The notes beneath the pieces were generated by a model that worked only from the letters and a program-made list of their open reading frames with translations, was not told the origin of the DNA and did no database searches. From the sequence record PP358550: a stretch of 64,000 nucleotides of DNA; one strand, given 5' to 3'. Positions 18,216-27,105 of this stretch are shown piece after piece. Made by a program: the position numbers and the translations under genes. Within the stretch, counting starts at the first letter, position 1. Each line of letters starts with the position of its first letter. Source of the stretch: Escherichia phage FL04.

Positions 18216-18386
18216 ATGAACTGGTATAAAATTTGGAAAAATCAGGTGGAGGCTTATCTAGGGTATAAGCCCACCGACAAAGAATTACTTGATGCAATGT
18301 ATGAAGACGGACTAAATCCGAAAGTAGCCGCGCAAGAATACGCGGAATGGGTGAAGGTCGAAGATAACCTAAAGAGGAAACTATGA
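18216..18386 (+). CDS. hypothetical small protein (56 aa)
   Basis: ATG 18216 just after upstream stop. Confidence 0.45.
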   Translation: MNWYKIWKNQVEAYLGYKPTDKELLDAMYEDGLNPKVAAQEYAEWVKVEDNLKRKL

Positions 18387-18607
18387 AGAAAATGATTGCG
18401 ATTGCTTTGTTGGCGAGCGCATGTACTGTAAATGCTAACACCGCAGCGATGGTCGCGGCTGTAACTGCCGCAAATGCTTCCGTTATGGCATCGCAAGAGG
18501 CAGCACGCCAGCAAGCACAACAAGAAGCCAAGCGAAAAGCACATGAGGCGACGAAAAATTTTCACGAAAATAACAAAAAACTAGTTGACGCCAAAGGTCA
18601 TCGGTAG
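18383..18607 (+). CDS. hypothetical secreted protein (74 aa)
   Basis: Signal-peptide-like N-terminus MKKMIAIALLASACTVNA; Ala/Gln-rich mature part. Confidence 0.55.
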   Translation: MKKMIAIALLASACTVNANTAAMVAAVTAANASVMASQEAARQQAQQEAKRKAHEATKNFHENNKKLVDAKGHR

Positions 18608-19178: not shown

Positions 19179-19207
19179 TTGACAGGGGATCGCCGATCCC
19201 CTATAAT
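19179..19207 (+). promoter_or_regulatory. PeSL-type early promoter with palindromic 17-nt spacer
   Basis: TTGACA-GGGGATCGCCGATCCCC-TATAAT. Confidence 0.7.
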
Positions 19208-19464: not shown

Positions 19465-20211
19465 ATGAAAAACATTATCGCTGCTATCGTTCTTTCTGCT
19501 ACTGCTTTCGGTGCTAACGCTGCGTCCTTTGATTGCGCTAAAGCTACTACCAAATCAGAGAAGTTTATTTGTGCTAATGAGTCTATCTCCGCACTGGACT
19601 CTAAACTTCATGAGGTGTATGTTAAGGCTGTTAAGATTGATCCGTCTCTGAAACAAGAGCAACGAAACTGGAATAAAACTGTTCGTGATACAATGATCAA
19701 TATCGGGCAGATTCAGCCACTGGAGGCTGTATATAACGCTCAAATCCAAAACTTGATGAATGTATTACCTAAAGAAGAAAGCGATTCAGAGACTTCTGCG
19801 AAGGTTGAAGAAGAACAACCGAAACAGGAAGCAAAAGTGGTAGAAGAACCGAAGGTCGAAACTTTTACCTATCAATGCACCGTTCGTTATGAGTGGAGTA
19901 TGAAAGATGGAATTTCCACAAAAATTAAAGAGGCTCCACTGTATGCAAAATATGGAAACCAGCCAGGGGATCTTAAAGTAACCATTAAAAATGGGAAGAT
20001 GGTTGATTTTGTATACATTGATGAATACAACGTACACAAAGCAAACGTACAAGAAACCGTTATGACTAAAGGCGGGTTTTATAAGAATGTTGGCAAGAAA
20101 GATCTATATGAATACTCCGTTTTCGAACCAAACGACGGAACTATTCGATTTGAAAAACGTCATCCTACATTCGGTGGCGCAATTGATGTAGATCAATACG
20201 TTTGCAAGTAA
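19465..20211 (+). CDS. secreted DUF1311/LprI-like domain protein
   Basis: 248 aa; signal peptide MKNIIAAIVLSATAFGANA; FDCAKATTKSEKFICANESISALDSKLHEVY...QRNWNK pattern typical of DUF1311 (LprI-like); acidic linker; C-terminal Cys-containing domain. Confidence 0.6.
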   Translation: MKNIIAAIVLSATAFGANAASFDCAKATTKSEKFICANESISALDSKLHEVYVKAVKIDPSLKQEQRNWNKTVRDTMINIGQIQPLEAVYNAQIQNLMNVLPKEESDSETSAKVEEEQPKQEAKVVEEPKVETFTYQCTVRYEWSMKDGISTKIKEAPLYAKYGNQPGDLKVTIKNGKMVDFVYIDEYNVHKANVQETVMTKGGFYKNVGKKDLYEYSVFEPNDGTIRFEKRHPTFGGAIDVDQYVCK

Positions 20212-20222
20212 GAGGTTAAATT

Positions 20223-20495
20223 ATGCAATTCAATAACATGAAGATTACAAAAGATTGGTGGAAGGCGATGCAAGATACTCCAGAAACCAAATTAAGCGAG
20301 ACAACAACCACAATACAAGTTGATTACGAAGATCCGAAAGACATATACAGAGAGCTTATAAAAGCTGGAAACTATCAAACACCAGATGGCCTTATTGACA
20401 TGATGGTTAAAGGTCTGTATAGTGGTAAAAATCCAGATATTTTACCGTGGTACGAGGGATATTTTAAAACATATCGTGACCACAACCGAAAATAA
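20223..20495 (+). CDS. hypothetical protein (90 aa)
   Basis: GAGG RBS. Confidence 0.55.
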   Translation: MQFNNMKITKDWWKAMQDTPETKLSETTTTIQVDYEDPKDIYRELIKAGNYQTPDGLIDMMVKGLYSGKNPDILPWYEGYFKTYRDHNRK

Positions 20496-20518: not shown

Positions 20519-20710
20519 ATGGTAATTTTTAATCGTGATGGTATTATAGTTCGACAGCATCCATTCCTTGAATACTATCAGGTTGAACAATGGGGATATG
20601 GAGATTGCAACCGCTCATACGGTCAAAGCTGGGGATACCGTACAGTTTTTGAATCAACTAATATTGACAAAGTACGACAGAAAGTTTTAGAACTTCTTAA
20701 CGATAAGTGA
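20519..20710 (+). CDS. hypothetical protein (63 aa)
   Basis: GTGAGGATTATATTATG initiation motif. Confidence 0.55.
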   Translation: MVIFNRDGIIVRQHPFLEYYQVEQWGYGDCNRSYGQSWGYRTVFESTNIDKVRQKVLELLNDK

Positions 20711-20720
20711 GGATTACATC

Positions 20721-21089
20721 ATGGAAATTCAAAACAATTACGAAAAATGTGTTATTATCAATGATCTGCAACGTCAATTGCATCATTACGAAACCGATTA
20801 TAAAACAGCAACCAAAACCGGAAAGCTGAAAGTGTGGGAAGTCTGGTATAACCGGAACTATCTGGGAAGCATCCACAAACTTGATCGCAGTGATGTTTAT
20901 ACAATGCATGTGGGCGCGTGTGGCGAATCGGATGTAGCATCTAATTTCATGGAAGCACTTGCATTCTATGTAGAATATCTGGTAGACTATATCGAGTTGG
21001 AAGAGGAAGTGGTAGAATTGCTTCCTCCACCGGAAGAAGCGCCGGAAGCAACGATCCTGAAAGCATTAAAGAAAATCTTTGTTAAGTGA
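20721..21089 (+). CDS. hypothetical protein (122 aa)
   Basis: GTGAGGATTACATCATG initiation motif. Confidence 0.55.
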   Translation: MEIQNNYEKCVIINDLQRQLHHYETDYKTATKTGKLKVWEVWYNRNYLGSIHKLDRSDVYTMHVGACGESDVASNFMEALAFYVEYLVDYIELEEEVVELLPPPEEAPEATILKALKKIFVK

Positions 21090-21097
21090 GGTGAACT

Positions 21098-21430
21098 ATG
21101 AAAAATGTACTGATTGTGTGGGAACTGATTCCAGAAACTACTGAATTATATATGGTACAGGTTGATAATAAAGAATTTGAAATTCTGAAACGCGTCAACT
21201 GCAAATATATTAACATTGATGACATGACCCCAGAAATGGACTATGTAAACTATGCTCTCATGCAGCCTAGTTGGATTATGGATGAAACCAAAGCAGACGC
21301 CGAATCGCTGGGTGTGCCGGAAGAAGTATTAGCGAAATGGCATCAATTCAAAGTTGAAATAAAAGAGGGTGAACCGTTTATTCCTAGCGGTATGATCGAT
21401 GCGGTGATTGTAACAGGTTTTCATCTGTAA
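21098..21430 (+). CDS. hypothetical protein (110 aa)
   Basis: GTGAGGTGAACTATG initiation motif. Confidence 0.55.
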   Translation: MKNVLIVWELIPETTELYMVQVDNKEFEILKRVNCKYINIDDMTPEMDYVNYALMQPSWIMDETKADAESLGVPEEVLAKWHQFKVEIKEGEPFIPSGMIDAVIVTGFHL

Positions 21431-21442
21431 GGACATTATACA

Positions 21443-21775
21443 ATGTTTAACTATGACAAATATGAATCATGGAAAGCGACCGAATTGAAAGAGGCAGCGC
21501 GGTTAATCACACCGCGTCTTTATCCGGTGTTGTTTAGCGCCGATAAAGTAACAAGGGAAGTAAACGAGGCTCTATCGGTTTTAGGCTATCTGATCGATAA
21601 AGTAGAGAAAACATCGGTATTCACAAATAGTGTAGAATATACCCGGTATCGAGTGTTTTTAGATTCCTTGCTCGTTGTCATTAAGGCACTAAATGATCAT
21701 AACTACACCATGAACATGACGAAAATAATCGACGAAGCAAGAATTATGACAGAGAATATTTTCGGTAAATTTTGA
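21443..21775 (+). CDS. hypothetical protein (110 aa), tandem paralog of 21890..22213
   Basis: C-terminal ...DEARIMTENIFGKF versus paralog ...NDARKLAENVYGKF. Confidence 0.55.
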   Translation: MFNYDKYESWKATELKEAARLITPRLYPVLFSADKVTREVNEALSVLGYLIDKVEKTSVFTNSVEYTRYRVFLDSLLVVIKALNDHNYTMNMTKIIDEARIMTENIFGKF

Positions 21776-21889
21776 TTATGAAAGATGATGAATCATTGAA
21801 AATTGCACTGGTTATGCTATTACAAGGTATAGAATTAGCAAACCACGAAAAAATGTTGACACAACAGCGTGAAATTATGAGAGGTGATT

Positions 21890-22213
21890 ATGATCGAGTT
21901 TGAAATTGACAACTTTCACGAAAAAGCAGAAGACCTAACCAAAATTTTGATTAGTCGAGGTGCATATAATACGAAAGATATTATAAAAGAAGTTAATGTA
22001 GCGATGGACGCGATCCGAAAGGAATTTAAACATATTTCAGCGATTGGAGAAAATGGTCATCTTGAAGATGTTGAGCTGGTAGCACTGCGACGCTATTACT
22101 TCTTTGTTGATTGCATCATTGATCTAGCTAAAAATTATAGTCATTACATGAAAGATATTGTAAACGATGCACGTAAGTTGGCAGAGAATGTTTACGGGAA
22201 GTTTCCAGAATGA
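21890..22213 (+). CDS. hypothetical protein (107 aa), tandem paralog of 21443..21775
   Basis: ATG 21890 after GAGGTGA; shared C-terminal motif. Confidence 0.55.
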   Translation: MIEFEIDNFHEKAEDLTKILISRGAYNTKDIIKEVNVAMDAIRKEFKHISAIGENGHLEDVELVALRRYYFFVDCIIDLAKNYSHYMKDIVNDARKLAENVYGKFPE

Positions 22214-22458
22214 AATTAGAACAAGCGATTGTATACTTTGAGATGGGCTATGATATTGCTCGTGTAGAGTGGGAAGATGGTGATTTTGTCCGATTGATTG
22301 ATCTTCCAGAAACAGCTATTGCACTGGTCAAAGTAGAAAACGGCATACAACGAAATTACGCGTTTTCTGACGAAGACAAACAAGCCGATGACTGGTACGC
22401 TACCTGTTTTCATCATACAGCGTCAAAATGTGATTCAGGGGCTTCTATGCGCCAATAA
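22210..22458 (+). CDS. hypothetical protein (82 aa)
   Basis: Start overlaps upstream stop; last + strand gene before convergent terminator. Confidence 0.5.
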   Translation: MKLEQAIVYFEMGYDIARVEWEDGDFVRLIDLPETAIALVKVENGIQRNYAFSDEDKQADDWYATCFHHTASKCDSGASMRQ

Positions 22459-22490
22459 AAAGAAGGGGAGGCCGAAAGGCTTCCCCTTTA
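22455..22490. terminator. bidirectional terminator between convergent early (+) and late (-) units
   Basis: GGGGAGGCC-GAAA-GGCTTCCCC hairpin; T-run on - strand side (TTCTTTTTAT), short T-run on + side. Confidence 0.65.
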
Positions 22491-22492
22491 AG

Positions 22493-23149
22493 TTATCTAA
22501 TCCTTCCGAGGATTCTGGCAGATTGATTGCAAAGAGTATCTAAATTCTCAATGTCAATATCCGGTTTATTCTTCCATGAAATGGCGATACTACCAGAATA
22601 GACATTATCGAGATTGAATATAGGACAAGAATACATGAAACCTATATCGATATTCTCTAATTTCTTTTCTCTTGATGGAATATACTGGAAATCTTTATCG
22701 GTAAAATAGGATTTACCTAAAAGATGCCTACGATATTCTTCACTCGTTTTATTGATAGGGAATCCGCCTAAATTTTTTTCATCGATTGTATGCGGTAGCT
22801 TTCCTTCATATGCCACCAAATCAACAAAATAGTTTAGGTTTTTCGGACGAAAACTAAAAACAGCAGAAAAATCGGCATCAGCCGACACATGAACTATCTG
22901 TAACTGCTCCTGTGCTGCATTATCAAAATTGCGGTCTTTCTCTACCTGGAGAACGTGAGCATAAGTCTCATAACGAGTCTCTTTATACAAGGCAAATAAC
23001 TCGTTTTTACTATAGACGACAAATGCTAATATGGACAACACGACGGCAGCAAAAACACGAAGTACGAGCAACTCCGTGCTTTTAGTTGTGAAAATAGCGC
23101 GCAGGACATTTGAGATAGCAAAGTCTTTCCCTTTTTCAGAAACTTGCAT
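22493..23149 (-). CDS. t: holin T
   Basis: 218 aa, same length as T4 holin; conserved blocks EQLQIVH.S..ADFSAV.SFRPKNLNYFVD..AYEGKLP, MYSCP.FNLDN.Y.G, ARILGR; single N-terminal TM. Confidence 0.9.
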   Translation of the reverse strand: MQVSEKGKDFAISNVLRAIFTTKSTELLVLRVFAAVVLSILAFVVYSKNELFALYKETRYETYAHVLQVEKDRNFDNAAQEQLQIVHVSADADFSAVFSFRPKNLNYFVDLVAYEGKLPHTIDEKNLGGFPINKTSEEYRRHLLGKSYFTDKDFQYIPSREKKLENIDIGFMYSCPIFNLDNVYSGSIAISWKNKPDIDIENLDTLCNQSARILGRIR

Positions 23150-23487: not shown

Positions 23488-24270
23488 CTAAACAGCCGGT
23501 CCGTAAATAGCTCCGCGATTTTGCCACGTTGGAGAAGACCCTATAACAGCATATCCAGAATCGCCGCCATTATATTCAGATCCTTGACCACGAATATTAC
23601 ATCTACCTCCTGCGGCGCCTACCTCACCACCGCTTCCACCATTATAGATACCGTTCACGGACCCCGAACCGGGCGCATAAAGAGTACCAGCAGTTGCGCC
23701 TGATTGCATATCAATAGATCCGCCCGGCGCACCAAACGGACGCCCACCGCCACCGCCAAAGGTTAATCTCATTTGTGAAAAAGGAGAATAATACCCACCA
23801 CCGCCACCGCCACCGCCACCTGCAATAGCTCCACCATTATTAATTCTTAGTCTCCCACCAATATCATTTTGAATACAATGCCCACCGGCTGATCCAGGAC
23901 CATTGCTACCGCCATTCCCGCCACGACCATACATCGTTACGCCATGTATATTCAACTGAACATATTCATTCGGTGTATCTCCGTACATAAAGAATAAAGG
24001 AACATCTTTAGAATATGATACTAAATCTCCAGTGATATTAAACACTATAGGTGTACTACCTGCTTCAAAGCATCTATCACGGAACCACTGACCGTTGAAG
24101 TTATGGTCTGCACCAAGTGTATGAATAATTTCTCGCGAGCGACCTGCAAATTGACTCATCCAGCAAGGAACACCCAATCTTAATTGACCAGCCGCTTGAC
24201 TCATCCATCTTTGTCCTGTTTCATTTGCGGCTGAACTTCCAATCCAACCAGGAACACCAACTACTGCCAT
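23488..24270 (-). CDS. 38: receptor-recognising tail fibre adhesin gp38 (T2-type, glycine-rich motifs)
   Basis: 260 aa; N-terminus [48 protein letters not shown] matches T2-type gp38 attachment domain; poly-Gly motifs ([11 protein letters not shown]). Confidence 0.88.
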
Positions 24271-24306: not shown

Positions 24307-27105
24307 TTAGAATTTAAAATATTTACTAATTTTGCGAGCAATTTTAGTAAAGAGAGGCGTTTTCAATTCTTTAATTTCTTCACTCATTTCCTGAATAGCC
24401 TTAATTAAAAGAGCATTCACAGCGGAGTTAGAAATTGTCAGAACATCAGATCCATCAACTTCAACTTTAGACACAGCTTCCGGTAATTCTTTTTCAAGAT
24501 CCTGAGCAATAATACCAACTTCGCGTTTAATCACGCTACGATCTTTAATAGACTTAACTTTATCGTAAGTATAAACTTTCAGTCGGCAAACTTTTTCGAC
24601 CGCTCCATATTCTAATTCTTCTTTATTAATCTTGAGACGGGAGTCAGAACGAATATACACATCGCTAAAGCTACCATTTCCTGGTGTATAAAAGAATCCA
24701 TCATGATGGAATTCAAATATAGCTTGTGGGTGTCCAGCATCAGGAGAAGCCTCCGTGGATCCGACGCGAATGATTGCTTGCCCCCACTGTGATGGAATAC
24801 GACGCATACCAAAGTCAACAGCGGTGCTATATCCTTGATTGGTTATAACGCTTCTTGCTTTAAGAATAGGATAATAACTATCTTGACCAACATAACCATG
24901 ATCAACGAATAATGGAGCTTCTACTCGCCATTGGTTGCCCCAATCACCCGGTTGTCTAGCAATCCATCCAGAACCGTTAATGTGTACACGGTCGCGGTTA
25001 ACGTTAACCATTAAGGTATTTTGCGGGTTTAACGCAATCTCACCATTGTTTGTTATATGTACTGCCGCCTGAGTAGCATAGCTATAAAATGCTAGCGAAT
25101 TATCAGCACCACCTTTACCAATATACCAGTTACCATTCCCGTCTACGTCACCGCGAATATGCAAAGCGTTGCTGGCTGTAGTCGATAATACAATAGCATC
25201 ACCCGGACGTTTAATAGTCAATCGACCAGTTGATTCAACTTCACCAAAGAATTTAGTTTTAATTGCACCAGTCGCTAAAGTACGTTCAGTGGAAAAATGA
25301 GCGCCTTTACTATCTTCTAACTGAATAATGTTATCACGAGCGTTATTGCTATCACCCCAATGATTAAACCGGAAATAATCGCGTGATTGCTTACCACCCG
25401 CTTCAAACGTCAGCGTACCTTTACTTAAATTAACATCACCGCTAAAGGTAGCAGCAAGAGAACCGCCTTTTAATACTAAAGCGTTAGCACCGCTAGTGCC
25501 ACCCAAAGTAACATCGCCAGTTTTTAATTGATAGCGGAAAGGTCTATTTGTATTAAAGTTTCCATCTTGATCATTTTCGTCGGTGGAAAGAATATAAAGA
25601 CTTTCACCATCATTACGGAAAATTGTGCCAAATTTACCGCCATACATACGGAATGCATTAGATGAGCGGAATTTAACTTCTGTTTTAAATGTGGTAGTGT
25701 TATTAAGGTTAACAGTAGAGTTAAAATTGGTAGGAGCACCGAAGTTAACAGCACCATTAAAATCTTGTTGAGCTGTCCATGTGTGGCGACCATCTTCAAG
25801 AACAACACGGCGGACTGTGTAAGTTCTATTTCCAGAATTACCGAACACACGAACGACAAAATAACGGTAGTTTGTCTGGGATACAGTACCGCGCCAAACC
25901 TGAACAGTACGCCCTGTGCTAGTGTGTTCACTAGGACCAACGGAAAACATAACCAGGTTTCCGTCAATCGTCCCCCAATCCATATTTGCTGGCATGTTCT
26001 TTATTTTGTTCAAAGGAACGCTAAACATACTACCAGGAACAAAATCAAAGGTTTGCCAATCTAACTCCGCTAATTGAGCTTTAATACCACCCATACCCAA
26101 AGTAATTGGAAGAGAATAAGATGTATATACTTCGTTCCATACACCCCACGCACCACCAGTATATGCACGCTCAAAAATACGATCGCGAGTAGTTGCACCC
26201 GTTCCGGCAGTAGTAAATTTTTGGAAAATAGCACCACCAGAAGCACGCTGTTTAACTTCCAGCAAACCAACAATAACGGCTGGTAAACCTTCACCAGTAG
26301 GACAGTTAATAACGGCATCAGTGCCTAAAATGTTATATAACCCAGGAGTTTTAAAATCATTCAGATCTCCATCATAGAAAGTCGCTGGTGTGCCATGACC
26401 AACCTGCTTCCATTCCTCCCACTTAGGTGCACTAGCATCCCATGCAGCAGCGAGACAACGAGTATAAACCATACCCATGCGGGTAGTATAACGCTGCGTT
26501 CTTGTGTAGAAACCACCTTCAAATATTTCTAAAAATCCTTGTGCGGCTGATCCTTCTTCTGGATAATGGCGATCAAATGATGCGATTGCGCTTGAACTGT
26601 TTCTCCATAAGCCACAATGTTCTAATTCTCCCAAGCTATCAAGGTCAATCGTTTGTGAAAGTGGACGAGTTGACGCTTGAACATTACGCCACACACCCCA
26701 TGGACCATCTACACCATTCCATTTCGCAGACAAAGAACGGATATAAACGTTACCAGACCGAACAGTATAACGCTGAGTGCCAGCAAATTGACCAGCCACA
26801 AATACTTCTAATACACCTACAGCATTCTCTTCTGGGAATTTATTTGCTGGCTGCGCATTTGTTGAAGTTGATTTAGACCAAACGCCAGTAAATTTACCAG
26901 TAGGTCCATAATTATCTAAATTTGCATCAGATGGCAACTCACCGCGAAAGTGTCCCAAAGTAATTACATTATTGCTGTCATCTTTTGTATATAGTTCTCG
27001 ATCCGCTAGGTTAATAGCAAGTTCACCCGGAGTTAGAATATTCGCATCCGGCTTGCGACCTGCCGTACTTGTTCTTTTAAATTGGATTCTCTGTAAATCT
27101 GCCAT
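24307..27105 (-). CDS. 37: long tail fibre distal subunit gp37 with C-terminal intramolecular chaperone (S74-like) domain
   Basis: 932 aa; N-terminus MADLQRIQFKRTSTAGRKPDANILTPGELAINLADRELYTKDD matches gp37; C-terminal SDVYIRS/DSRLKINKEE...AVNALLIKAIQEM resembles autoproteolytic chaperone domain. Confidence 0.88.
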   Translation of the reverse strand: MADLQRIQFKRTSTAGRKPDANILTPGELAINLADRELYTKDDSNNVITLGHFRGELPSDANLDNYGPTGKFTGVWSKSTSTNAQPANKFPEENAVGVLEVFVAGQFAGTQRYTVRSGNVYIRSLSAKWNGVDGPWGVWRNVQASTRPLSQTIDLDSLGELEHCGLWRNSSSAIASFDRHYPEEGSAAQGFLEIFEGGFYTRTQRYTTRMGMVYTRCLAAAWDASAPKWEEWKQVGHGTPATFYDGDLNDFKTPGLYNILGTDAVINCPTGEGLPAVIVGLLEVKQRASGGAIFQKFTTAGTGATTRDRIFERAYTGGAWGVWNEVYTSYSLPITLGMGGIKAQLAELDWQTFDFVPGSMFSVPLNKIKNMPANMDWGTIDGNLVMFSVGPSEHTSTGRTVQVWRGTVSQTNYRYFVVRVFGNSGNRTYTVRRVVLEDGRHTWTAQQDFNGAVNFGAPTNFNSTVNLNNTTTFKTEVKFRSSNAFRMYGGKFGTIFRNDGESLYILSTDENDQDGNFNTNRPFRYQLKTGDVTLGGTSGANALVLKGGSLAATFSGDVNLSKGTLTFEAGGKQSRDYFRFNHWGDSNNARDNIIQLEDSKGAHFSTERTLATGAIKTKFFGEVESTGRLTIKRPGDAIVLSTTASNALHIRGDVDGNGNWYIGKGGADNSLAFYSYATQAAVHITNNGEIALNPQNTLMVNVNRDRVHINGSGWIARQPGDWGNQWRVEAPLFVDHGYVGQDSYYPILKARSVITNQGYSTAVDFGMRRIPSQWGQAIIRVGSTEASPDAGHPQAIFEFHHDGFFYTPGNGSFSDVYIRSDSRLKINKEELEYGAVEKVCRLKVYTYDKVKSIKDRSVIKREVGIIAQDLEKELPEAVSKVEVDGSDVLTISNSAVNALLIKAIQEMSEEIKELKTPLFTKIARKISKYFKF

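What the first reader, a model, noticed from the sequence alone, without database searches (positions are those of the whole stretch)
21443..22213. Tandem paralog pair of ~110-aa proteins
Adjacent ORFs 21443-21775 and 21890-22213 share a C-terminal signature (...(D/N)(E/D)AR...(T/A)EN(I/V)(F/Y)GKF) and similar length, indicating tandem duplication followed by divergence, a pattern seen for anti-defence gene families.
Basis: seen in the sequence. Interest (0 to 1): 0.35.

Follow-up and report, generated by a model that had tools for sequence, protein, structure and literature searches.

The report
Polymorphic paralog pair in RB49-like phage
Two neighbouring small genes of an RB49-like coliphage are true but ancient duplicates from a family found only in this phage genus; they lie in a swap-prone early-gene cassette beside a Tad2-like gene, and their function is unknown, possibly anti-defence.

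Summary
ORFs 21443-21775 (A, 110 aa) and 21890-22213 (B, 107 aa) are real, full-length paralogues. Both match PHROG 9457 end to end. Global identity is about 31% and the C-terminal similarity beats all 2000 shuffles. They share a four-helix fold.

They are not strictly adjacent: a doubtful 41-codon ORF lies between them.

The window is a Krischvirus (RB49-like T4-type coliphage). A and B correspond to RB49p257 and RB49p256, both annotated as hypothetical.

An exhaustive HMMER search of 1.84 billion proteins, plus Pfam, NCBIfam, PDB and Foldseek, found no relatives outside this genus.

Among 58 Krischvirus records:
- 48 carry both genes and 10 carry only B.
- B occurs in at least five allelic lineages (28-53% identity between lineages), although flanking DNA is 95-100% identical.
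- A and B alleles reassort. Both genes are under purifying selection.
- In every locus where both genes are seen, B's stop codon overlaps the start of a Tad2-like (PF11195) gene.

The anti-defence reading is plausible but only circumstantial. The evidence for it is early expression, the Tad2-like neighbour, balanced polymorphism, and a position in the interval where T4 carries arn, asiA and motA.

This is an ordinary kind of feature in a T4-type hyperplastic region, but it offers a concrete, testable candidate. Interest is modest.

The parts
21443..21775 (+). Paralogue A (110 aa; orthologue of RB49p257; allele A1). It is an optional member of the cassette.
   Evidence: ORF. PHROG 9457 E=2.7e-43 over residues 7-110. 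98% identical to RB49p257. Present in 48 of 58 Krischvirus records as A1 (45) or A2 (3, about 69% identity), absent from 10. dN/dS 0.02-0.27.
21778..21903 (+). Small intervening ORF s41 (41 aa; = RB49p256.1). Its coding status is doubtful.
   Evidence: PHROG 17009 E=7.5e-33. Annotated in RB49. Seen only in genomes with the A1 allele, and absent from one of those (L004). Truncated to 36 codons in SSG23 and L014. Absent from kvi, ECD7 and L004. Four nonsynonymous and no synonymous differences between window and RB49.
21890..22213 (+). Paralogue B (107 aa; orthologue of RB49p256; allele B1). It is the constant member of the cassette.
   Evidence: PHROG 9457 E=1.4e-56 over residues 1-107. Strong Shine-Dalgarno GAGGTGA before ATG 21890. 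Found in all 58 Krischvirus records. AF2 model pLDDT 85.9, pTM 0.80, four helices at 9-22, 28-54, 59-82 and 87-102. At least five allelic lineages with 28-53% identity between lineages.
22210..22458 (+). Tad2-like (PF11195 / DUF2829) gene, 82 aa (= RB49p255). Its start overlaps B's stop codon (ATGA).
   Evidence: Pfam PF11195 E=3.4e-6, 27.9 bits against a cut-off of 25. The same overlap with the B gene occurs in RB49, ECD7, kvi, SSG23, Makalu_003, AV108, L003, L012 and L014, and a downstream ORF cut off by the contig end overlaps B the same way in L004. 98-100% identical in the five isolate genomes compared, 95-99% in metagenome loci L012-L014.
22463..22488 (.). Bidirectional stem-loop terminator between the early operon (+) and holin gene t (-).
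   Evidence: Read from the sequence: an 11-bp stem aaggggaggcc / ggcttcccctt with a GAAA loop. Homologous sites are annotated as terminators in TB34 and Makalu_003. The simple scan did not list it.
21098..21430 (+). Conserved left flank: RB49p258-like gene (110 aa, PHROG 4658), unrelated to A and B.
   Evidence: 99-100% identical across the isolate genomes compared. DNA identity drops abruptly just after its stop codon.
20395..20423 (+). Nearest upstream sigma-70-type (early) promoter-like site on the + strand.
   Evidence: TTGACA-17-TATAGT, 11 of 12 matches. This is a consensus match only. No promoter-like site lies between it and A or B.

Best explanation
A and B are two ancient paralogues of an orphan family of small (103-115 aa), soluble, four-helix early proteins. 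The family is confined to Krischvirus (RB49-like T4-type coliphages; PHROG 9457).

They lie at the end of an early, sigma-70-driven operon in the plastic interval between topoisomerase gene 52 and holin gene t. Together with a Tad2-like gene they form a polymorphic accessory cassette. B is always present and is translationally coupled to the Tad2-like gene. A is optional.

The alleles are old lineages kept functional by purifying selection. They are swapped between otherwise near-identical genomes by homologous recombination in the conserved flanks. All of this is shown by the analyses here.

The mechanism is inferred, not shown. The proteins are most likely host-interaction or counter-defence factors. 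The conserved helical core and the C-terminal AR-x-L-(A/T)-EN-(V/I)-(Y/F)-GKF(PE) motif would provide a common scaffold or function. The hypervariable N-terminus and helix 2-helix 3 loop would set specificity for a strain-variable host target, either a defence protein or an immune signal. B would be deployed together with the Tad2-like sponge.

Confidence is about 0.9 for the shown part. The figure of 0.4 applies to the counter-defence mechanism.
For: Paralogy and fold.

Genus restriction:
- The word-indexed search of 5.8 billion proteins gave only 29 clusters.
- The exhaustive HMMER search of 1.84 billion representatives gave only four small-protein clusters. Its long-protein hits are summed weak repeat matches.
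- All credible tblastn hits lie in 58 Krischvirus records.

Early operon: promoter-like sites at 19179, 19402 and 20395, with a terminator after the Tad2-like gene.

Polymorphic cassette:
- Flanking genes are 98-100% identical in the isolate genomes, while B alleles of different lineages share only 28-53% identity and A alleles 69%.
- DNA identity falls from 95-100% to gaps or about 60% exactly at 21443 or about 21880, and recovers by about 22190.
- Allele combinations reassort: A1+B1, A1+B2', A1+B4, A2+B3, A2-like+B2, and B2 alone.

Functional constraint: dN/dS is 0.02-0.37. dS between B alleles is 1-3, against 0.04-0.25 in the flanks.

Counter-defence context:
- The coupled neighbour passes the Pfam Tad2-like threshold.
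- Tad2 domains are often fused to other small alpha-helical sponge proteins, the Sequestin family (PMC12265669).
- The syntenic 52-t interval of T4 holds arn, asiA and motA.
- No motA orthologue was found in RB49, and RB49 is not among the phages listed with an asiA orthologue (PMC1524935).
Against: - Nothing ties A or B directly to defence. There is no match in Pfam, NCBIfam or the PDB by sequence, and no Foldseek match to any known anti-defence protein.
- No paper mentions these genes.
- Guilt by association with a Tad2-like domain is weak. That hit is only 3 bits above threshold, the protein has no sequence match to solved Tad2 structures, and its ligand binding is untested.
- Overall dN/dS is below 1, so there is no detected signature of positive selection.
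- Hyperplastic regions of T4-type phages hold many polymorphic genes with unrelated roles.
Confidence: 0.4

Rival explanations
1. Host-takeover factor acting on conserved host machinery. One example would be an RNA polymerase or sigma-70 modulator that stands in for AsiA/MotA, for which no RB49 orthologues are reported. Another would be an inhibitor of a host housekeeping protein.
For: B is a small all-helical early protein encoded next to t, converging on it from the opposite strand. In T4 asiA sits directly beside t, whereas here the Tad2-like gene lies between B and t. No motA orthologue was found in RB49, and RB49 is not listed among phages with an asiA orthologue (PMC1524935). B is present in every Krischvirus record.
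Against: hhalign of the family profile against T4 AsiA gives probability 0.5%. HMM scores against all T4 proteins of the 52-t interval are below 4 bits. Foldseek against the PDB does not return AsiA. Alleles sharing only 28-53% identity within one genus are unexpected for a protein that docks on an invariant host target.
Confidence: 0.15
2. B is a partner, adaptor or regulator of the Tad2-like protein. On this reading it has no target of its own. A is a spare copy.
For: B's stop overlaps the start of the Tad2-like gene in every locus where both are seen, including the diverged metagenome locus L003. In L004 the downstream ORF is cut off by the contig end. The C-terminal motif of B is the best-conserved part of the protein.
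Against: The Tad2-like protein is 98-100% identical across the isolate genomes whose B alleles share only about 50% identity. The variable surface therefore does not co-evolve with it. A is not coupled to any such gene. Characterised Tad2 proteins act alone as homo-oligomeric sponges (my reading of the Tad2 literature listed; not checked here). Part of the C-terminal DNA conservation may serve the downstream ribosome-binding site (GGGAAG).
Confidence: 0.15
3. Dispensable accessory genes with some other role, such as competition between phages, superinfection exclusion, or fitness under particular physiological conditions. On this view the polymorphism only reflects the general recombinational plasticity of this genome region.
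For: The 52-t interval is a block of 16 small hypothetical ORFs in RB49. T4-type genomes concentrate variable genes in hyperplastic regions that shuffle modularly (PMC2839356 and PMC4122927). A is missing from 10 of 58 records.
Against: Purifying selection acts on both genes, and B is retained universally. Neighbouring ORFs in the same interval are almost invariant, so the plasticity is specific to the A/B slot. No PeSL-type promoter-terminator motif lies at the cassette borders.
Confidence: 0.25
4. The similarity is chance or compositional, and the two ORFs are unrelated.
For: Pairwise similarity of the N-terminal halves is not significant on its own.
Against: Both ORFs match one PHROG profile over their full length. 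The shuffle tests give z=7-10. Invariant columns run along the whole alignment. An independent structural match gives TM 0.69.
Confidence: 0.01

Closest known systems
RB49p257 / RB49p256 (hypothetical proteins of Escherichia phage RB49) and PHROG 9457
   Same: 98-99% identical orthologues with the same gene order, p258 - A - p256.1 - B - p255 - terminator - t. Both window proteins match the PHROG profile end to end.
   Different: Nothing of substance. The family has no assigned function, and the paralogy and polymorphism were not described in any paper found.
Sequestin (Pfam PF21825): small alpha-helical phage sponges for 3'cADPR, often fused to Tad2 or Acb4 domains (PMC12265669)
   Same: A small, all-helical, phage-only protein genetically linked to a Tad2-family gene.
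   Different: No PF21825 hit at E<=1 for any of 13 family members. Longer, at 103-115 aa against 60-80 aa. Linked by translational coupling rather than fusion. Oligomeric state and ligand binding are untested.
T4 AsiA (anti-sigma-70) and T4 Arn (anti-McrBC DNA mimic), encoded in the syntenic 52-t interval
   Same: A small early protein encoded at the t-proximal end of the 52-t interval. AsiA is also all-helical.
   Different: No sequence or profile similarity and no fold match. A and B are not strongly acidic (pI 6.6 and 5.4), unlike DNA mimics. They are highly polymorphic within one genus.
Polymorphic accessory genes of T4-type hyperplastic regions (PMC2839356, PMC4122927)
   Same: Small early ORFs of unknown function that are inserted, deleted or replaced between closely related T4-type genomes.
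   Different: The cassette borders here lie at gene boundaries and inside B's 3' end, not at PeSL promoter-stem-loop motifs.

Membership tests
PHROG 9457 (unknown function) | Significant full-length match to the family profile | tested here: met
   A: E=2.7e-43, residues 7-110 on profile positions 1-105 of 107. B: E=1.4e-56, residues 1-107 on 1-107 of 107.
Tandem paralogue pair (one gene family, common fold) | Homology over the whole length and the same predicted fold | tested here: met
   Alignments with invariant columns throughout. Four-helix models for both, A at pLDDT 64 and B at pLDDT 86. The B model matches a BFVD A-type protein at TM 0.69.
Sequestin sponge family (PF21825) | Match to Pfam PF21825 | tested here: not met
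   No hit at E<=1 for A or B or for any of 13 family members.
Sequestin sponge family (PF21825) | Homo-oligomer with interface pockets that bind 3'cADPR | not testable with these tools
   No multimer or ligand modelling and no binding assay were available.
AsiA anti-sigma family | Sequence or profile similarity to T4 AsiA | tested here: not met
   hhalign probability 0.5%. HMM score 2.3 bits. The AsiA query was verified against PDB 1JR5.
AsiA anti-sigma family | AsiA-like fold | tested here: not met
   Foldseek of the pLDDT-86 B model against the PDB gave no match at E<=0.001, and AsiA entries are absent from the 50 best matches listed.
Arn / DNA-mimic anti-restriction proteins | Sequence similarity to Arn, and the strongly acidic surface typical of DNA mimics | tested here: not met
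   HMM score 3.5 bits against T4 Arn. pI 6.6 (A) and 5.4 (B), with net charge 0 and -5.
Tad2 (PF11195) - applies to the neighbouring gene 22210-22458, not to A or B | Pfam PF11195 match above the gathering score | tested here: met
   27.9 bits against a cut-off of 25, E=3.4e-6, residues 1-63 on profile positions 1-71 of 73. Precomputed hits for homologues are weak or faint.
Tad2 (PF11195) - neighbouring gene | Similarity to solved Tad2 structures, and gcADPR binding | tested here: inconclusive
   Neither phmmer nor a 4-sequence profile hit any Tad2 chain in the PDB at E<=10. Binding is not testable here.
Anti-defence protein (generic) | Demonstrated inhibition of a defence system, or homology to a protein with such activity | not testable with these tools
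   No homology found and no literature. This needs experiment.

The most novel reading that the evidence does not exclude
The A/B family is a previously unrecognised family of counter-defence proteins: either an immune-signal sponge or a direct inhibitor of a defence protein. It would work alongside the Tad2-like sponge. Its ancient, reassorting alleles would each neutralise a different variant of a strain-variable E. coli immune system, so that one phage locus carries balanced specificity alleles.
Probability: 0.15. Interest if true: 0.6.

Novelty: new member of a known kind. Interest (0 to 1): 0.3.

Why it matters
As it stands, this is a well-documented example of something already familiar: small polymorphic early genes in a plastic region of a T4-type phage.

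The practical value is a concrete experiment. Krischvirus phages are used in therapy collections. This locus offers natural allele series (at least five B lineages, two A alleles, and presence or absence of A) in nearly isogenic backgrounds, next to a Tad2-like gene. Allele swaps plated on diverse E. coli, or on cloned defence systems, could quickly show whether this orphan four-helix family determines host range or counter-defence.

Tried and rejected
1. Remote homology. Pfam, NCBIfam and PHROGs gave no function. PDB sequence and profile searches gave only E>=0.37 noise. An exhaustive HMMER profile search of 1.84 billion representatives found only the family itself, plus three long repeat proteins. 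Their scores are sums of domain hits below 13 bits in rhodanese, LRR and other repeats, so I rejected them as spurious.

2. Fold comparison.
- The A model was too weak to use (pLDDT 64).
- The B model (pLDDT 86) matched only designed helical repeats in the PDB (best E=0.38, TM<=0.51).
- In BFVD it matched only its own family.

3. AsiA/Arn analogy suggested by synteny. There is no similarity to any T4 protein of the 52-t interval.

4. A Morganella phage MP1 tblastn hit (E=1, 28% identity) lies inside a 221-aa ORF in an unrelated locus near primase. I rejected it as chance.

5. Sequestin (PF21825) in A, B or neighbouring small ORFs, or in T4 arn.1-4 and asiA.1: none found.

6. PeSL-type promoter-terminator motifs at the cassette borders: none.

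7. Literature on RB49p255-257, or on Krischvirus and Tad2: nothing.

8. Positive selection: pairwise dN/dS is always below 1, and synonymous sites are saturated between allelic lineages. Site-wise tests were therefore not attempted.

Full report
**Identity of the window.** The region 20700-22500 is 98-99% identical to 52 of 58 matching phage records, and all the hosts listed are Escherichia or Shigella. The seven matching records I opened are classified as Krischvirus, the RB49-like T4-type coliphages of Straboviridae. In RB49 the two ORFs are RB49p257 (A) and RB49p256 (B), both annotated as hypothetical proteins. The local gene order is:
- gene 52 (topoisomerase), followed by 16 small + strand ORFs;
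- these end with p259, p258, p257 (A), p256.1, p256 (B) and p255;
- then a terminator;
- then holin t and the tail-fibre genes on the opposite strand.

The window has the same order.

**Check of the observation.** Both ORFs exist at the stated coordinates, and B has a strong Shine-Dalgarno sequence before ATG 21890.
- BLASTP aligns the C-terminal 43 residues at 37% identity, E=3e-8.
- The local score of 78 exceeds all 2000 shuffles (mean 28, sd 5). A global alignment gives about 31% identity, z=7.
- The N-terminal halves are not significant pairwise.
- Both proteins nevertheless match PHROG 9457 end to end (E=2.7e-43 and 1.4e-56).
- Family alignments have invariant columns along the whole length.
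- AlphaFold2 gives a four-helix protein for both: A at pLDDT 64 and B at pLDDT 85.9, pTM 0.80.
- Foldseek of the B model against BFVD returns only an ECD7 B-type protein (TM 0.83) and a JEP8 A-type protein (TM 0.69, 24% identity, probability 1.00).

The paralogy is therefore real and covers the full length. One correction: a 41-codon ORF (21778-21903, RB49p256.1, PHROG 17009) lies between the two genes.

**How wide the family is.** It is very narrow.
- Three word-indexed searches of 5.8 billion proteins found 29 clusters, all A-type or B-type.
- An exhaustive HMMER profile search of 1.84 billion representatives found four small-protein clusters. It also found three long repeat proteins whose scores are sums of weak per-repeat hits, so these are spurious.
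- tblastn against 50,697 phage records finds B in 58 records. With A as query, the only hits outside those 58 are chance-level, at E of 1 or worse.
- No Pfam, NCBIfam or PDB relative exists for any member.
- The confident B model has no meaningful PDB fold match: best E=0.38, to designed helical repeats.

**Copy number and polymorphism.** The 58 records include some RefSeq/GenBank duplicates.

| Arrangement | Records |
|---|---|
| A1 plus a B gene | 45 |
| A2 (about 69% identical to A1) plus B3 | 3 |
| B only | 10 |

 B itself occurs as B1 in 43 records, and as B2, B2' or B3 in 15. Two further lineages, B4 and B5, appear in metagenome contigs. B alleles of different lineages share 28-53% identity; B2 and B2' are 70% identical.

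- The flanking genes (p259-like, p258-like, Tad2-like) are 98-100% identical in the isolate genomes compared, and 95-99% in metagenome loci L012-L014.
- DNA identity to the window is 90-100% up to 21440. It collapses exactly at the start of A, or of B where A1 is retained. It recovers gradually inside the last 60-70 nt of B.
- Allele combinations reassort: A1+s41+B1, A1+s36+B2', A1+B4, A2+B3, A2-like+B2, and B2 alone.
- Nei-Gojobori estimates give dN/dS of 0.02-0.37 for A and B.
- dS between B lineages is 1-3, against 0.04-0.25 for the flanks.

The alleles are therefore old, functionally constrained lineages moved by recombination. They are not the product of recent in-situ divergence. The small ORF s41 behaves differently. 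It shows four nonsynonymous and no synonymous changes against RB49. It is truncated in SSG23 and L014 and absent from several genomes. Its coding status is doubtful.

**Context.**
- Promoter-like sites with 10-12 of 12 consensus matches lie upstream on the + strand at 19179, 19402 and 20395.
- A stem-loop that related records annotate as a terminator follows the last gene. These are early-type genes, as reported for novel ORFs of T4-like phages (PMC1524935).
- The gene after B (22210-22458, 82 aa) passes Pfam's gathering score for the Tad2-like domain PF11195 (27.9 against 25 bits).
- Its start overlaps B's stop (ATGA) in every locus where both genes are seen, including the diverged locus L003.
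- In T4 the syntenic 52-t interval holds motA.1, motA, arn.4 to arn.1, arn, asiA.1 and asiA.
- No motA orthologue was found in RB49, and RB49 is not among the phages listed with an asiA orthologue (PMC1524935).
- A and B show no similarity to AsiA, Arn or any other T4 protein of that interval.
- A and B are not markedly acidic.

**What it most likely does.**

*Shown:*
- two real, expressed-type, constrained paralogous genes;
- a four-helix fold;
- restriction to one genus;
- B constant and A optional;
- ancient alleles that reassort;
- translational coupling of B to a Tad2-like gene.

*Inferred:* the family consists of host-interaction or counter-defence proteins.
- The conserved core and the C-terminal motif AR-x-L-(A/T)-EN-(V/I)-(Y/F)-GKF(PE) would provide a common function.
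- The hypervariable N-terminus and the indel-rich helix 2-helix 3 loop would give specificity for a strain-variable host target.
- There is a precedent for the association. Tad2 domains are frequently fused to other small alpha-helical sponges (Sequestin, PF21825), which were discovered through exactly that linkage (PMC12265669).
- However, A and B do not match PF21825.
- I put this mechanism at about 0.4.

*Rivals:*
- a takeover factor acting on conserved machinery such as RNA polymerase (0.15);
- a partner of the Tad2-like protein (0.15), which is disfavoured because that protein is nearly invariant while B varies;
- a dispensable accessory gene with another role (0.25).

**Comparison with what is known, and novelty.** The genes are already in public genomes as hypothetical proteins and are grouped in one PHROG. 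No paper found discusses them. Polymorphic small early genes in T4-type hyperplastic regions are a known phenomenon (PMC2839356 and PMC4122927), although no PeSL motif flanks this cassette. I file this as a new, uncharacterised member of a known kind of feature, with orphan sequence and fold. Interest is modest at 0.3. It would rise to about 0.6 if the family proved to be a new counter-defence family with specificity alleles, to which I give a probability of about 0.15.

Noticed in passing
window 22210-22458 (+): An 82-aa gene (= RB49p255) passes the Pfam threshold for the Thoeris anti-defence Tad2-like domain (PF11195, 27.9 bits against 25). It is 98-100% identical in the Krischvirus isolate genomes compared. 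It has no sequence match to solved Tad2 structures. No paper found links Krischvirus to Tad2.
   Followed up: partly
window 21778-21903 (+): A 41-codon ORF (RB49p256.1, PHROG 17009) lies between the paralogues. It shows 4 nonsynonymous and 0 synonymous differences against RB49. It is truncated to 36 codons in SSG23 and L014, and absent from kvi, ECD7 and L004. It may not be a real gene.
   Followed up: partly
window 19465-20211 (+): A 248-aa early protein has an apparent N-terminal signal-peptide-like sequence (judged by eye) and an LprI (lysozyme inhibitor) domain (PF07007, 24.1 bits against a cut-off of 22). It may be a secreted or periplasmic phage protein.
   Followed up: no
window 23488-24270 (-) and 24307-27105 (-): A glycine-rich 260-aa ORF and a 932-aa distal tail-fibre gene lie downstream of t. 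At the same position kvi annotates a 259-aa receptor-recognition protein, and L014 has a 259-aa product with GP38 Pfam domains. RB49, ECD7 and SSG23 instead have a longer gp37 (about 2.9 kb) and no such gene. There is thus a second polymorphic module next to the A/B cassette, and B allele type does not track it. The window ORF itself was not compared with these proteins.
   Followed up: partly
protein P0013: An 81-aa fragment 99% identical to A is annotated in NCBI as a partial hypothetical protein of Bacillus atrophaeus. This is almost certainly coliphage contamination of that assembly.
   Followed up: no
window 20721-21089 (+); L012 1563-1931, L014 1088-1456: The p259-like protein carries a precomputed hit to PF26821 (Phage_T4_Y16F) in the contig look-up, and RB49's note calls it similar to a T4 12.8-kDa protein of the asiA-motA region. 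The local Pfam scan gave no hit at E<=1. Local phmmer found only a weak match to T4 Arn.4 (E=0.009).
   Followed up: partly
window 18383-18607 (+): A 74-aa ORF with a signal-peptide-like N-terminus gave a weak phmmer hit to T4 MotA (E=3e-4 in a tiny database, 11 bits). This is probably compositional.
   Followed up: no
L003 (ENA ERZ27254724 k141_1959): A metagenome contig from a more distant relative keeps the arrangement B-type gene, Tad2-like gene, then convergent holin t. Here the Tad2-like protein is only 49% identical to the window's, and B5 is about 42% identical to B1. The linkage therefore predates the sequenced Krischvirus isolates.
   Followed up: partly
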